A stretch of 64,000 bases of DNA, taken from contig OZ365112.1 of assembly GCA_977030845.1 (NCBI GenBank), positions 21,266,001 through 21,330,000 on the forward strand. The letters run 5' to 3'. A program made the position numbers. The DNA comes from Fimbriosthenelais zetlandica (Eukaryota). Positions 1 to 6,000 of this stretch are shown in pieces (position 1 is the stretch's first letter; the number at the start of each line of letters is the position of its first letter).

Positions 1-3000
1 TGCGGGTCCTGCTTCACCACGTTCTCCAGGTTCACCACGTGTTCCTGGTGTGCCAGATTCTCCACGTGGTCCCTGTCCTCCTCTTGGTCCGGCTTCACCT
101 CTTTGTCCTGCTGGTCCTGCAGGCCCGGCTTGTCCTGCTGGTCCAGAAGGACCTGGTTCTCCTCTTGCACCTGGTGAACCTGGAGTGCCTCCTTCTCCCC
201 TTGGTCCAACTTCACCTCTTTGTCCTGCAGGTCCCTGTGGTCCAGATGGACCAGATGGTCCTGGCTGTCCAGCCGGGCCAGGAGAACCTAATTCAGATAA
301 GATTTAAAATGGTTCATAAAAAGCTTTATAAGAGCTTTATAAACACTAGTAAACATCATTCAGGAAAAAAGGTTCAGAAAAAGTTCATTGAGAATGGAAT
401 GAAATACAAATTAATCATGGCTATTAACAATCCTTTCTTCATTAAGACGAGACTAAATATTGTGAATAAAGTAAGCGCAGTTTTTTCATAAATCATACCA
501 TCACTTCCTGGGGTTCCAGCCTCTCCTCTAGGACCTCGTTCTCCACGGCCACCTCGTGGTCCAGCTCCGCCTGCAGGTCCTGCAGGTCCAGATGGACCAG
601 GTTGACCACGTTCTCCTGCCCGTCCTGCTGGTCCACTTGGACCGGCTGGTCCAGATTCGCCAGGCTGACCAGATTCCCCACGTGGTCCTGCCGGTCCTGC
701 CGGTCCGGCTGGGCCAGGCTCTCCTCGACCTCCATCAGTTCCTGGCTCTCCTCTTGGTCCCGCAGGTCCAGATGGTCCAGATGATCCTACGAACGAAAAA
801 ATAATAAATTGCGATATATGTAAGCTGGAAAATCTTATATCAGTACTACTGAAAGTTAGTTTGCATAAAATTTACATTGTACTTGAATGTGTTCTGTACA
901 TGTTAGATTTATATGAATTACCTGGAGATCCCGGACTTCCAGGTTCACCCCTTTCTCCGGGTTGACCCCTTTCTCCACCTGGACCTCTTTCTCCCCTACT
1001 TCCAGGTGTTCCAGCTGGTCCAGATGGGCCAGGTGACCCTGCTGGGCCAGCTTCTCCCCTTTCTCCAGGTGTGCCAGGTGTTCCTCCTTCTCCTCTTGGT
1101 CCACGTTCACCTCTGGATCCTGCTGGACCTGATGGTCCAGATTCGCCAGCAGGTCCACTTGGTCCAGGTTGTCCACTTGGACCTTTAAACAACAATACTT
1201 TTATTAACCTATGTCCTATTAAAAATTGTGCAACACTTTCTCTACCAAATCTGACTGATTTCAACTGAAAAGGGTTTAAAATCGATTTCAACTGAAAAGG
1301 GTTTAAAATCAATTTCAACTGAAAAGCGTTTAATTACATTTGGATATGGCTAATCATCTGAGAAAGAAGAAAAACCTACCACTTGGTCCAGCTGGTCCTG
1401 GTTCACCTCTGTTTCCTGCTGGTCCTGCTTCACCTCTTGGACCACCTGGTCCTGCTGGGCCACTTGGCCCTGCCTCACCACGTTCACCTCTTGGCCCTTG
1501 CTCGCCTCGAGGTCCACCTGGTCCTGCTGGACCAGCCGGTCCAGATGGTCCAGCTTCTCCTGCTGGTCCTGCTGAACCAGCTTCACCTCTAGGTCCAGGG
1601 CCACCAGGTCTTCCATCAGATCCTGAAATAGATGTCAATTTGGTAAACATCTCATTAGGATCAGGAAAAATCAGGATCTAAACCATTTTGAAAGGATCTT
1701 AGTTTCATCTATGTTATATACTTAAACTGCTTGATATTATTTGTTATATATTAGGCAATTTATTTCTTTGCATAGTTGCTATCGGAATATCCATCACAGA
1801 ATGGATATGGCCTTGCTGGCTTCAATGTTGCTAATATAATCTGTACTATAAATTACCTGGTGATCCGGCTGTTCCAGATTCACCACGTGGTCCACGTTCT
1901 CCTGGTTCTCCTGGTTGGCCTCTTCCACCATCTGGGCCTCGAGGTCCAGCAGGACCACTTGGCCCAGAAGGACCTGATTCGCCTGGCCTCCCTGCCTCTC
2001 CAGCTGGGCCAGATTCACCACGTGGTCCTCTTTCACCTCGTGCTCCTGCAGGTCCTGCTGGGCCTGACTCTCCTCGTGTTCCTGCTGGGCCAGCTGGACC
2101 TGATGGACCAGCTGGGCCAGGTGATCCGGATGGCCCTTGTTCACCAGGCTCTCCTCTACCTCCTGCAGGGCCGGATGGGCCAGCAGGGCCACTTGGACCT
2201 GATGGACCAGCTGGTCCAGCTTCTCCTCGTGCTCCTCCAGGTCCAGATTCTCCACGTCCTCCGCGTGGACCAGCCTCTCCTCTTGGTCCGGGAGATCCTG
2301 CTGGCCCTGATGGGCCACTGGGACCCGATGGTCCAGCAGGGCCTGCCTCTCCTCTTTCACCACGTGGTGATGGGGGTCCTGCCTCTCCTCTGGGTCCAGC
2401 TGGTCCAGGAGATCCTGAAGGTCCAGCTTCTCCTCTAGGTCCAGGTAGACCGGCAGGACCGGCAGGTCCTGATTATTGAAAGTAGTATTTTTATAAACAA
2501 TGTGACACATTGATATATTCAAATGTTCAGATAAATTATGAAGGAAAAGGGAAAATAATGAAAACAGATTAATCATGAACACAGATTAATAATTGAAAAC
2601 AATAAAATCAATTATACCATACCTGGTGAGCCGTCAGCACCGGGCGATCCTCTTTGTCCTGATTCGCCTCTTGGTCCAGATCCACCAGCTGGACCTGAAG
2701 GTCCAGGGGGTCCTGATGGTCCTGCAGGTCCTCCTTCACCTCGTTCACCTCTAGGTCCTGCAGGTCCTCCTTCACCTCGAGGACCAGCAGGCCCACCAGG
2801 CCCTGACTCTCCTCTCTGTCCAGTAGGTCCTGGTGGCCCAGGTTGTCCTTAAAAGAAAAATAATAATTGTTTAATCCATTGCTAATAGCAGATTCAACGA
2901 AGGTCACATTTCTTACTTCACCTGGAATGCTCCACGTACTAAACAAACTATACATACCTACTCCTCCATCTGGACCTGATTCTCCCCGAGGACCTGATGG

Positions 3001-6000
3001 TCCTGGTCTTCCAGCTGGCCCTGCAGGGCCTGCAGGTCCACCTTCTCCTCTTTCACCTGCTTGTCCACGTGGACCTGCTGATCCAGGTTGGCCACGTGGT
3101 CCAGATTCACCAATTCCTCCTGCAGGTCCGGGACTGCCTGGCTGACCACTAGGGCCAGCAGGTCCAGCTGGACCAGCTTCTCCTCTTTCACCTTGGGTTC
3201 CAGGGGTTCCTGATTCACCGCGAGGTCCGGCTGGACCACTTGGACCAGCCGATCCAGCAGGTCCAGACTCACCTCGAGGTCCCGCGGGTCCTGCTGAACC
3301 TGAGGGTCCAGGTGAACCAGCGGTACCTGGTGTCCCTCTTGGACCTTGTTCACCACGTGGGCCAGCTGTACCGGCTGGTCCTGGAGACCCAGATGGTCCT
3401 GAGGGTCCGGGGGATCCCCTTTCTCCTGAAGGTCCAGCGGGACCAGCTGGGCCAGCCTCACCTCGAGAACCACCTGGTCCAGCAGGTCCAGATTCGCCTC
3501 TCTGTCCAGATGGTCCAGCAGGACCAGCTTCACCTGTTAAGTAAAACAAAATGATCCATTATTTCACTTAATGCACTAGATTGTATAATTAATATATTTT
3601 ATTCATGAAATATGTATAGAACATTAAAAGTAGAAGAGGATTGAACATTTCCTACCTGGGGTTCCTGGTTGACCACTTTCACCACGAGGACCTCTTGGTC
3701 CTGTAGGTCCAGCAGGCCCAGCCTCTCCAGCGGATCCTGGAGTACCTGATGGTCCAGCCTCACCACGTGGCCCAGGGGATCCAGATGGACCACTTGGTCC
3801 AGCTTCACCTCTCGAACCAGCTGGGCCAGATGGACCAGCAGGTCCACTTGGTCCGGATGGACCTGAAGGCCCAGCTTCTCCTCGTTCTCCTGGAGATCCA
3901 GGGGTGCCTCCTTCACCTCTGGGTCCTGGTGAACCTCTTTGTCCAGCAGGACCAGGGGGTCCTGACTCTCCTCTGGTACCAGGTGTGCCAGCAGGTCCAG
4001 ATGTCCCTATCATTCAAAATATAGAACTTTACTATGTCTGTGATAAATGCGTACGTTACCATCAAAGTTATATGATTTTCATAGAGAGTATGTTTAGAAC
4101 TCAATATTAAGGAAAGATGTCAAGAAGTTAAATTATTTTGTATTGTTCGGTAAAATGTTAATCACCTTGTGGACCAGGAGATCCTGGTTGTCCTCTTGGA
4201 CCTCCCTCGCCACGTGTTCCAGCGGGGCCAGCAGGACCAGCAGGTCCAGCGGGACCAGATGGCCCAGGTGACCCTCTTTCTCCTTGAGGTCCTGGTGAGC
4301 CTCCTGGACCAGCCTCACCTCTCGGTCCTGAAGGCCCGGCAGGCCCAGATTCTCCACGCTGACCTCCTGGGCCTGGTGGACCAGCTTCACCTGGAGAGAG
4401 AATAATTATGAAGTGGATTAATTTGAATACATTTTAAGTATTATTCAATTAAAATATCACTAGAGGAAAAATCATTATGACATACCTCTAGGACCTTGAC
4501 TACCAGGCTGTCCTCGTGAACCACCAGGTCCAGCTGGACCTGAGGGTCCACTTTCTCCAGCGGGTCCAGGGGAACCACTTTCTCCTCTACCCCCTCTTGG
4601 TCCAGATGGTCCAGATGGTCCTGCTGGTCCAGCTTCCCCTCGTGGGCCAGGTCTTCCTGCAGGTCCTAATGGACCAGAAGACCCAGCTGCACCAGTTGGT
4701 CCGGCTGGTCCAAGTGATCCTGGTGTTCCAGGTGATCCACCTTCTCCGCGTTCGCCACGTGGTCCACGTTGTCCAGCGGGTCCTGGTGGTCCAGCTTCAC
4801 CTCTAGCACCACCGGGGCCACTTGGTCCAGCAGGTCCTACAAGTGTACATAAAAAGGGGTATCAGTATACCTTGCAATTCTCAGTTCATTTTCATTTCAC
4901 TATGAGAATCACTATAGACATATAGTTGAATTTTCAGTATGAATATCAGGTACTTACCAGAAGGTCCAGGTGATCCAGATTCACCTCGAGGTCCACCTTC
5001 TCCGGCAGGTCCAGCCGGTCCTGATGGTCCAGGTTGTCCTCTAGATCCTGCAGGTCCAGGGGACCCTCCTTCTCCACGAGGCCCTGAAGGACCAGCTTCA
5101 CCTCGAGGTCCTCGTGATCCTGATGGTCCAGCAGGTCCTGATGGTCCAGCTTCACCTGGACCTCCACGTTCTCCAGCAGGCCCTGTTACAAAAATCATTT
5201 ATTTTAAGATTGACAGGAGTGCTTAGTTAAAATGTGAATCAGATTGAGGACGATAAATTTATGCCAATATAGGTTTACACACAAATATTAAACTTCAAAA
5301 TACCTGATGGGCCAGGAAGACCAGGCTGACCGCGAGGTCCACCTTCGCCGGCTGGTCCAGCAGGTCCAGCAGGTCCAGATGGGCCAGATGGACCAAGAGG
5401 TCCTGGCGGCCCAGCTTCTCCTCTTGATCCTGGAGATCCACCTTCTCCCCCTGGTCCTCTCTCGCCTCTTGGTCCCCTTGGTCCAGAAGGCCCAGATGGC
5501 CCAGCAGGCCCTGGAGAGCCAGGTTGCCCTCTTGATCCTGCAGGTCCAGGTGGTCCACTTTCTCCGAGTCCACCAGCAGGTCCTGCTTCACCTGGTTCAC
5601 CTCTTGGTCCCGCTGGTCCAGAAGGACCACTTGGGCCAGGTGAACCCGGTTGACCAATAGGTCCGCCAGGGCCTATATCAAAGAAGGTTACATTACAAAT
5701 AGATGCCAATGTTTGGGCCTAGTGTAGGTATAAATAATTGGTTATCATCGTCAATAGTCATTGAGAGAGAATGACCAACAAATGATCCATGTACTGTACA
5801 CTAAAGAAATATATTACAAACCACTCACCTGGAGCACCTTGGGGACCCGCTTCTCCTCTTTGCCCTCTCTCCCCACCTGGTCCTGGTGGTCCAGCAGGTC
5901 CTGACGGTCCTGATGGCCCAGATGGACCAGGTGGTCCTGCTTCTCCTCTTTCAGATCTAGGACCAGCCGGGCCAGGCGGACCTGCTGGGCCACCTGGGCC

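What the first reader, a model, noticed from the sequence alone, without database searches (positions are those of the whole stretch)
2623..5182. 64-triplet (576-nt) higher-order repeat with one precise intron loss
Seen: exon sizes run 225,351,225,351,576,225 and 576=225+351. Exon 19 aligns without gaps to exon 17 plus exon 18: 21 of 64 triplets identical; Glu triplets at positions 1,5,9,13,21 in both for the first 25, and 5,11,14,15,23,37 shared in the last 39. Exons 15+16 and exon 20 share the register more loosely. The missing intron maps between 3309 and 3308 (CCT G|GA). Inference: the helix grew by tandem duplication of a two-exon, 192-aa unit (about 55 nm) with exact intron loss in one copy; the conserved charge register might set a staggered packing period analogous to the 234-residue D-period.
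Basis: partly seen in the sequence, partly recalled or inferred. Interest (0 to 1): 0.65.

Follow-up and report, generated by a model that had tools for sequence, protein, structure and literature searches.

The report
Repeated two-exon block in giant collagen
A very long invertebrate collagen gene grew partly by copying a two-exon, 192-residue block several times, and one copy has lost its internal intron cleanly; this is a tidy but ordinary example of how collagen genes evolve.

Summary
On the minus strand, 5182-2623 carries six collagen exons of 225, 351, 225, 351, 576 and 225 nt, all with AG/GT sites and phase-1 introns that split a Gly codon. Exon 19 aligns without gaps to exon 17 and then exon 18, with 21 of 64 triplets identical. 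None of 20000 triplet shuffles reached that count. A lag profile over the six exons peaks at 64 triplets (z 9.9) and at 128 (z 4.6); the 95th percentile of shuffle maxima is 3.3.

The block is an old tandem array of a 25+39-triplet unit. Introns share no similarity, and synonymous sites are almost saturated. Intron loss in exon 19 is favoured. Unit 3 is closest to unit 2 (bootstrap 0.905). 25-type modules also end at an intron in six other exons. No orthologue could be examined, so the direction is not proven.

The D-period analogy is not supported. The 64-triplet charge period is absent upstream (z -0.4) and downstream (z -0.9), and covers about a quarter of the helix seen. The conserved charges are mostly Arg-Gly-Glu pairs.

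The gene encodes two N-terminal VWA domains and a Lys-free helix of about 2,600 residues that runs off the window. The taxon is unresolved; the contig is not human.

The parts
4958..5182 (-). e15, 25 triplets: A-type module of unit 1 (most diverged copy)
   Evidence: AG/GT sites, phase 1. X/Y identity to e17 is 22/50 and to e19 triplets 1-25 is 21/50.
4486..4836 (-). e16, 39 triplets: B-type module of unit 1
   Evidence: X/Y identity to e18 is 35/78. Gapped triplet alignment to e18 gives z 7.2 against 40 shuffles.
4166..4390 (-). e17, 25 triplets: A-type module of unit 2
   Evidence: 10/25 identical triplets and 31/50 X/Y residues with e19 triplets 1-25. This is the top pair of 10203 exon-pair/offset comparisons, z 5.5.
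4007..4165 (-). 159-nt phase-1 intron between the A and B modules of unit 2; counterpart of the intron missing from e19
   Evidence: gtgatt...gatag. No similarity to the e15/e16 intron: local score 16 against shuffle mean 17.4.
3656..4006 (-). e18, 39 triplets: B-type module of unit 2
   Evidence: 11/39 identical triplets and 37/78 X/Y residues with e19 triplets 26-64.
2958..3533 (-). e19, 64 triplets: unit 3, A and B modules fused in one exon
   Evidence: Uninterrupted Gly-X-Y frame of 576 nt. Ungapped match to e17 and then e18, 21/64 identical triplets, reached by 0 of 20000 shuffles.
3308..3309 (-). A|B junction inside e19 (CCT G|GA), where the other units carry a phase-1 intron
   Evidence: 225 nt from the exon start. 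No gap is needed on either side of the junction.
2623..2847 (-). e20, 25 triplets: A-type module of unit 4
   Evidence: X/Y identity to e19 triplets 1-25 is 26/50 and to e17 is 24/50.
2118..2468 (-). First 39 triplets of e21 (whole exon 2468-1857, 68 triplets): diverged B-type module that probably completes unit 4
   Evidence: The B profile matches e21 triplets 1-38 over profile positions 1-116, scoring above 100 of 100 shuffled versions. Ungapped identity to e18 is only 28/78 and to e19b 27/78.
1..14056 (-). The host gene. A putative signal-peptide exon (Met at about 14056), two VWA exons (within 13646-12909 and 12147-11431), then 22 collagen exons from about 11143 to position 1, where the gene runs off the window.
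   Evidence: Pfam VWA E 3.4e-17 and 8e-16; Pfam Collagen E 3.5e-16 on the last, open exon. Exon map. The signal peptide is read by eye.

Best explanation
The stretch 5182-2623 is the best-preserved part of an old tandem array inside a giant non-fibrillar collagen gene. The array was made by repeated unequal recombination, or segmental duplication, of a genomic unit. That unit held a 25-triplet exon (A), a phase-1 intron, a 39-triplet exon (B) and a second phase-1 intron. Because every intron splits a Gly codon in the same phase and every exon is a multiple of 9 nt, any such duplication keeps the Gly-X-Y frame and simply lengthens the triple helix by 192 residues (about 55 nm). Units 1, 2 and 4 keep the A|B intron. 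Unit 3 (e19) lost it exactly, either by recombination with a spliced-transcript cDNA or by deletion between the G|GT and AG|G ends of the intron. Shown: the repeat, its register, its age and the exact junction. Inferred: the direction (loss rather than gain) and the mechanism of loss. The conserved charge register is best read as purifying selection on Arg-Gly-Glu pairs that support the helix locally, not as a molecule-wide packing period.
For: Repeat: over e15-e20 the lag profile has z 9.9 at 64 triplets (151/306 X/Y matches) and z 4.6 at 128. The next best lag has z 3.1, and the 95th percentile of shuffle maxima is 3.3. Age: third-position identity at identical residues is 220/502 = 0.438 in register, against 0.397 off register. 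Of the 21 intron pairs, 20 scored within the range of their 100 shuffles and one only just above it (25 against a maximum of 24), still within the range seen in other pairs. Direction: X/Y matches are 68/128 for U2-U3, 57/128 for U1-U2 and 46/128 for U1-U3, and U2-U3 is the closest pair in 0.905 of 10000 bootstraps. An A profile built from the four copies matches c11 triplets 17-41 (0 of 100 shuffles reach it), c10 triplets 18-41 (0/100) and c08 triplets 1-25 (1/100), each ending at or next to the exon's 3' end. The B profile matches e21 from triplet 1 (0/100) and e23 from triplet 1 (0/100) (alignments). So the intron sits at the A end in 6 of 7 clear A copies and at the B start in 4 of 5 B copies; the e21 2-26 A-profile hit (4/100), which is not followed by an intron, is left out as ambiguous. 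Selection on charges: in the in-register comparisons Glu in X is conserved 66/107 and Arg in Y 70/114, against Ser in Y 36/107 and Ala in Y 64/149. 93 of 145 Glu residues follow an Arg, against 31.3 +/- 4.5 (max 46) in 2000 shuffles.
Against: No orthologue or outgroup gene could be read, so loss versus gain rests on parsimony within one gene. The quartet of A copies has one informative site for each of the three topologies, so there is no resolution. Gene conversion between neighbouring units could make U2 and U3 look like sisters. e15 and e20 are barely alike (14/50). The profile scores are noisy, because shuffled collagen exons also score high. Other large exons (c02 with 114 triplets, e21 with 68) show that exon size varies widely in this gene, so a 64-triplet ancestral exon is not absurd. 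No transcript evidence confirms the exon model.
Confidence: 0.72

Rival explanations
1. Intron gain: the ancestral unit was a single 576-nt exon, as in e19, and the A|B intron was inserted later.
For: e19 and e21 (68 triplets) are both long exons without an intron at that place. The four-copy A quartet gives no tree resolution. If the root of the unit tree lay on the e19 branch, one gain would be as parsimonious as one loss.
Against: U3 is nearest to U2, not an outlier (bootstrap 0.905). The same intron position and phase follows A-type modules in c08, c10 and c11, outside the block. This would need several gains at one site, or a single gain older than all of these copies, in which case e19 would still have lost it.
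Confidence: 0.15
2. Functional axial period: the conserved 64-triplet charge register sets a 55-nm stagger for lateral packing, like the 234-residue D-period of fibrillar collagens.
For: The like-charge lag profile in e15-e20 has z 9.4 at 64 and 5.5 at 128. Charged positions are kept (about 62%) although synonymous sites are almost saturated.
Against: The period is absent upstream (454 triplets, z -0.4) and downstream (156 triplets, z -0.9). Over all 827 triplets z is 5.2 at 64 but 1.5 at 128 and -0.1 at 192. The block is 217 of about 870 triplets seen. Downstream copies of the modules have other lengths (e21 68, e22 27, e23 29, e24 32 triplets), so the register drifts. Most charges are local Arg-Gly-Glu pairs. 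There is no Lys for the cross-links that lock a D-stagger (the link to cross-linking is recalled).
Confidence: 0.06
3. Chance or compositional similarity: the match reflects only the low complexity of Gly-Pro-rich sequence.
For: A search with e19 alone finds unrelated collagens and bacterial collagen-like proteins at 34-57% identity in the 120 listed hits. Off-register X/Y identity is already 27%.
Against: 0 of 20000 triplet shuffles reach the observed count. The in-register offset is the single best of all offsets. e17/e19 is the best of 10203 exon-pair/offset comparisons. The lag-64 peak has z 9.9.
Confidence: 0.01

Closest known systems
Exon amplification and exon fusion in fibrillar collagen genes (54-bp unit; 108- and 162-bp exons)
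   Same: The helix is lengthened by tandem duplication of exon units that keep the Gly-X-Y frame, and larger exons equal the sum of smaller ones (PMC2852846, passages read).
   Different: Here the unit is two unequal exons of 225 and 351 nt. Introns are phase 1 and split the Gly codon, rather than exons starting with an intact Gly codon. No exon is 54-bp based.
Collagen IV-type gene architecture (split glycine codons)
   Same: Gly codons are split by introns in the collagenous part; PMC5395295 (passages) calls this a defining feature of vertebrate collagen IV genes.
   Different: This helix has only 2 Gly-to-Ser imperfections in 827 triplets and N-terminal VWA domains. The many interruptions of collagen IV are recalled, not tested here. 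The C-terminal domain is outside the window.
VWA-domain collagens (types VI, VII, XII, XIV, XXII, XXVIII and invertebrate 'collagen VI-like' proteins)
   Same: VWA domains lie N-terminal to a collagen helix. The best named relatives of VWA1 are annotated collagen alpha-6(VI)-like or COL6A (Hydra, Sinanodonta, Branchiostoma).
   Different: Identity to these is only 23-32%. The helix here is at least 2,600 residues and almost uninterrupted. That the vertebrate types have much shorter helices is recalled, not tested.
Giant annelid collagens (7,719-8,859 aa; Alvinella, Paralvinella, Eisenia andrei)
   Same: A very long Gly-X-Y helix with much Pro in X. The paper's table gives G-P-Y 0.403 and G-X-P 0.215 for the earthworm entry (PMC12403961, passages and Table 1). 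Here X=Pro is 0.549 and Y=Pro is 0.187. That Gly-Hyp-Ser and Gly-Hyp-Ala are typical of earthworm cuticle collagen is recalled only.
   Different: No sequence of those proteins was compared. Whether they carry VWA domains or this repeat is unknown to me. The taxon of the window is unresolved.

Membership tests
Higher-order tandem repeat (unit made of two unlike sub-units) | Copies one unit apart are more alike than the sub-units within a unit | tested here: met
   A-A and B-B in-register X/Y identity is 42-62% for the pairs among units 1-3. The best A-versus-B offset, summed over 12 pairs, is 33.7%, and at offset 0 it is 28.8%.
Higher-order tandem repeat (unit made of two unlike sub-units) | Periodicity at the unit length and at its multiple | tested here: met
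   z is 9.9 at 64 triplets and 4.6 at 128.
Precise intron loss | Homologous copies carry an intron at the same position and phase | tested here: met
   A phase-1 intron follows the A module in e15, e17 and e20 and the A-like ends of c08, c10 and c11.
Precise intron loss | Exact junction with no inserted or deleted codons | tested here: met
   576 = 225 + 351, and the alignment is ungapped on both sides of 3309|3308.
Precise intron loss | An outgroup orthologue retains the intron | not testable with these tools
Fibrillar collagen (clades A/B/C) | Helix exons of 54 bp or related sizes that begin with an intact Gly codon | tested here: not met
   Exon sizes run from 153 to 1026 nt, and all 20 complete helix exons end with the first base of a Gly codon. 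The feature is as stated in PMC2852846.
Fibrillar collagen (clades A/B/C) | Major helix of about 338 triplets | tested here: not met
   827 triplets lie in 20 complete exons, plus two more collagen exons, and the gene is still open at the window edge. The figure of 338 is recalled.
Fibrillar collagen (clades A/B/C) | C-propeptide (COLFI, PF01410) | not testable with these tools
   The 3' end of the gene lies beyond position 1 of the window.
VWA-domain collagens | A VWA domain in the same chain as a collagen helix | tested here: met
   PF00092 at E 3.4e-17 and 8e-16, upstream of the helix exons on the same strand. That they are spliced into one transcript is inferred.
Giant annelid (cuticle-type) collagens | Chain of about 7,700-8,900 residues with a high share of Pro in X | tested here: inconclusive
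   About 2,600 helix residues are seen before the window ends. X=Pro is 0.549 and Y=Pro 0.187, against 0.33-0.40 and 0.21-0.33 in PMC12403961 Table 1. No sequence comparison was made.
D-periodic fibril-forming collagen | A charge periodicity that runs the length of the helix | tested here: not met
   z at 64 triplets is -0.4 upstream and -0.9 downstream of the block. Over the whole helix z is 1.5 at 128 and -0.1 at 192.

The most novel reading that the evidence does not exclude
The gene encodes a giant, lysine-free, cuticle-type collagen. Its central 64-triplet register of Arg-Gly-Glu pairs would be a selected axial repeat, about 55 nm and at least four copies long. It would serve as a docking zone for staggered self-association or for a periodic partner, and the exon architecture would still record how that zone was built.
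Probability: 0.06. Interest if true: 0.6.

Novelty: new member of a known kind. Interest (0 to 1): 0.3.

Why it matters
It is a clean worked example of how a collagen helix is lengthened. Symmetric phase-1 exons that are multiples of 9 nt let a two-exon block be copied in tandem without breaking the Gly-X-Y frame, and one copy shows an exact intron deletion. The host gene is less ordinary: two VWA domains, a helix of at least 2,600 residues with no Lys, His, Cys, Met, Tyr or Trp, and no annotated full-length relative in the libraries searched. It may belong with the giant collagens recently noted in annelid genomes. None of this opens a long-standing question, and the proposed packing period does not hold up.

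Tried and rejected
1. Relatives of the VWA1 exon. The 'longer' search (353-2000 aa) found none and the 'near' search (110-352 aa) found none.
I dropped that step, so full-length relatives longer than 2000 aa were searched only through the representative library.
3. The representative search with VWA1 gave 122 hits. Only two short unnamed proteins were close (55% and 48%). The best named hits were at 23-32%, so the taxon was not resolved.
4. The search with e19 alone returned generic collagens and bacterial collagen-like proteins, with no orthologue recognisable. The Clytia VWA-WAP-collagen hit shares only 24% identity in VWA.
5. Rfam found no family in the window. TRF finds only short 9-63-nt periods in the gene and not the 576-nt unit.
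6. In one search the query window:2958-3533:- was out of frame, so its empty Pfam result means nothing.
7. A deeper A-to-B homology, meaning an older single-exon unit, was considered. The ungapped signal is weak (best 33.7% at offset 14, 28.8% at offset 0, background about 26%), so it is left as a possibility only.
8. c07 (351 nt) and c08 (225 nt) have the sizes of B and A. However, c07 is at background against e16, e18 and e19b (18-19/78) and against the B profile (45 of 100 shuffles reach its score).
Searches went exon by exon, and the lag profiles were summed from exon-pair comparisons using exon offsets.
10. Literature searches on exon duplication and intron loss in collagen genes, and on giant annelid collagens with VWA domains, gave nothing on this gene or repeat. 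From these I read only listings and the passages cited. Supplements were closed.
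Full report
What is there. The minus strand of window 1-14056 carries one long collagen gene. It starts with a putative signal-peptide exon (Met near 14056, read by eye). Two exons follow that each hold a VWA domain (Pfam PF00092, E 3.4e-17 and 8e-16). Then come 22 collagen exons from about 11143 down to position 1, where the gene runs off the window. The 20 complete helix exons after the first short one hold 827 Gly-X-Y triplets with only two imperfections, both Gly to Ser. 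Every one of these exons is a multiple of 9 nt, has AG and GT sites, and ends with the first G of a Gly codon, so all helix introns are phase 1. The remaining 50 kb of the window holds eight stop-free frames of at least 110 aa, none of them convincing by eye, and no Rfam family.

The observation. The six exons in 5182-2623 measure 225, 351, 225, 351, 576 and 225 nt. e17 against the first 25 triplets of e19 gives 10 identical triplets, and e18 against the last 39 gives 11, so 21 of 64, with 68 of 128 X/Y residues identical. Shuffling e19's triplets gave 5.3 +/- 2.1 identical triplets (max 19), and none of 20000 shuffles reached 21. Sliding e17 and e18 along e19 gives at most 5 and 7 identical triplets at any other offset. 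Among 10203 exon-pair/offset comparisons over the whole helix, e17/e19 in register is the best (z 5.5) and e18/e19 at offset 25 ranks sixth (z 4.0). The junction falls at 3309|3308 in CCT G|GA.

The period. I did not build or search a joined, spliced sequence. Searches went exon by exon, and the lag profiles were summed from exon-pair comparisons using the exons' cumulated offsets. Over e15-e20 (217 triplets) the X/Y identity profile peaks at 64 triplets (151/306 matches, z 9.9) and again at 128 (z 4.6). The next lag has z 3.1, and the 95th percentile of the maximum in 300 shuffles is 3.3. The like-charge profile gives 9.4 and 5.5.

Age. In-register nucleotide identity is 55-70% among the A and B copies of e15-e20, against 54.6% off register. 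Third positions at identical residues match in 220 of 502 cases (0.438), against 0.397 off register. Of the 21 pairs among the seven introns of the region, 20 scored within the range of their 100 shuffles; one scored just above its own maximum (25 against 24), a value within the range seen in other pairs. Neutral sites are therefore almost saturated. The duplications are old and have not been homogenised recently.

Extent and hierarchy.
- A sliding 20-triplet map shows lag 64 as the leading or a high-ranking lag only from the second half of e15 to e20.
- Profiles built from the four A copies and the three B copies were scored against each other exon and 100 triplet-shuffled versions of it.
- A-like segments: c11 triplets 17-41 (0 of 100 shuffles reach it), c10 triplets 18-41 (0/100), c08 triplets 1-25 (1/100) and e21 triplets 2-26 (4/100).
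- B-like segments: e21 triplets 1-38 (0/100), e23 triplets 1-29 (0/100) and c10 triplets 1-39 (2/100).
- Gapped triplet alignments agree: e18/e23 z 7.1, e20/e21 6.3, c10/e20 6.1, c08/e20 5.8.
- The block is thus the regular core of a wider, older family of modules. Unit 4 is probably e20 plus the first 39 triplets of e21.
- Further copies have other lengths (e21 68, e22 27, e23 29, e24 32 triplets), so the 64-triplet register is not kept outside the core.

Loss or gain.
- Unit 3 (e19) is closest to unit 2: 68/128 X/Y matches, against 57 for U1-U2 and 46 for U1-U3. U2-U3 is the closest pair in 0.905 of 10000 bootstraps.
- An intron in the same phase follows the A module in e15, e17 and e20, and follows the A-like ends of c08, c10 and c11. 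B-like modules start at an exon start in e16, e18, e21 and e23.
- One loss in e19 explains this; gain would need several insertions at one site.
- Against this, the four-copy A quartet is unresolved, with one informative site per topology. Conversion between neighbours could mimic a U2-U3 sister pair. No orthologue could be read, because no eukaryotic genome collection was available.
- I put loss at about three to one over gain.
- The mechanism is inferred, not shown: either recombination with cDNA of a spliced transcript, or deletion between the G|GT and AG|G intron ends.

The packing idea.
- The like-charge period of 64 triplets is absent from the 454 triplets upstream (z -0.4) and the 156 downstream (z -0.9).
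- Over all 827 triplets z is 5.2 at 64, all owed to the block, and only 1.5 at 128 and -0.1 at 192.
- A D-like stagger needs a period that runs the length of the molecule. Here it covers 217 of about 870 triplets seen.
- Charged positions are indeed better kept than neutral ones: Glu in X 66/107 and Arg in Y 70/114, against Ser in Y 36/107 and Ala in Y 64/149. With synonymous sites almost saturated, this points to purifying selection.
- But 93 of 145 Glu residues directly follow an Arg across the Gly, against 31.3 +/- 4.5 (max 46) in 2000 shuffles. The register is a register of Arg-Gly-Glu pairs.
- From recalled peptide work on Lys/Arg-Gly-Glu/Asp sequences, such pairs stabilise the helix locally. 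That is enough to explain their retention in each copy.

What kind of collagen.
- The gene does not have the fibrillar gene plan, which is 54-bp-related exons that begin with an intact Gly codon (PMC2852846, passages). Its helix is far longer than a fibrillar one.
- Split Gly codons are described as a mark of collagen IV genes (PMC5395295, passages), but this helix is almost uninterrupted and is preceded by VWA domains.
- VWA1 found 122 relatives in the representative library. The closest are two short unnamed proteins (55% and 48%; 54% over 195 residues for P0001). The best named ones are at 23-32%: a Hydra 'collagen alpha-6(VI)', a Sinanodonta COL6A, an uncharacterised Lingula protein and Branchiostoma proteins.
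- The word-index searches found nothing. e19 alone found only generic collagens.
- The helix has Pro in 54.9% of X and 18.7% of Y positions. GPS, GPA and GPR are the commonest triplets, and there is no Lys, His, Cys, Met, Tyr or Trp.
- That composition and the sheer length recall the giant annelid collagens of 7,719-8,859 residues. For those, the earthworm entry shows G-P-Y 0.403 and G-X-P 0.215 (PMC12403961, passages and Table 1).
- This is a lead, not a test: no sequence was compared and the taxon is unresolved.
- I do not take the contig for human. No vertebrate orthologue appeared, and the gene plan fits no vertebrate collagen I know.

Verdict. Intron loss is likely but not proven. The functional analogy is not supported. 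Exon amplification and exon fusion are textbook collagen-gene evolution, so this is a new member of a known kind. The host gene is the more unusual item.

Noticed in passing
window 5953-5955 (in c10) and 2368-2370 (in e21), minus strand: The only two breaks of the Gly-X-Y pattern in 827 triplets are both Gly-to-Ser (GPR SER GEA and GPP SPR GER). They sit within one triplet of each other in the alignment of these A-like segments to e20.
   Followed up: partly
window 499-10846, minus strand (20 helix exons): The helix has no Lys, His, Cys, Met, Tyr or Trp. Pro fills 54.9% of X positions, and Ser, Ala and Arg fill 69.5% of Y positions. There are 156 acidic and 182 basic residues.
   Followed up: partly
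window 9821-10846, minus strand (c02): A single exon of 1026 nt (114 triplets) has far fewer charges than the rest (Glu 2.7% of X/Y residues in c02+c03). TRF reports short internal periods of 45 and 63 nt.
   Followed up: no
window 5304-5672, 5829-6197 and 7709-8077, minus strand (c11, c10, c06): Three exons of 41 triplets each. c10 and c11 show a lag-41 signal (z 3.6-4.0), and c06/c10 match in register (z 3.4). This suggests a second, 41-triplet exon family upstream of the block.
   Followed up: partly
window 1257-1333: A 27-nt tandem repeat, 2.9 copies at 96% identity, lies in the intron between e22 and e23.
   Followed up: no
window 13500-13540, minus strand (VWA1): At the start of the VWA1 match the sequence reads D-Q-S-M-Q, where the metal-site motif recalled as DxSxS would sit. 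The closest relative, P0001, reads D-Q-T-M-S. The domain may not bind metal in the usual way.
   Followed up: no
window 47755-47945: A 45/86-nt tandem repeat (4.3 copies, 75-83% matches) lies in a G-rich stretch. It coincides with the GC-skew spike of +0.28 at 46-48 kb.
   Followed up: no
window 14300-64000: About 50 kb upstream of the gene has GC of 35-41%, few stop-free frames of at least 110 aa (eight listed, none convincing by eye), and no Rfam match. The collagen exons stand out at about 49-56% GC.
   Followed up: no
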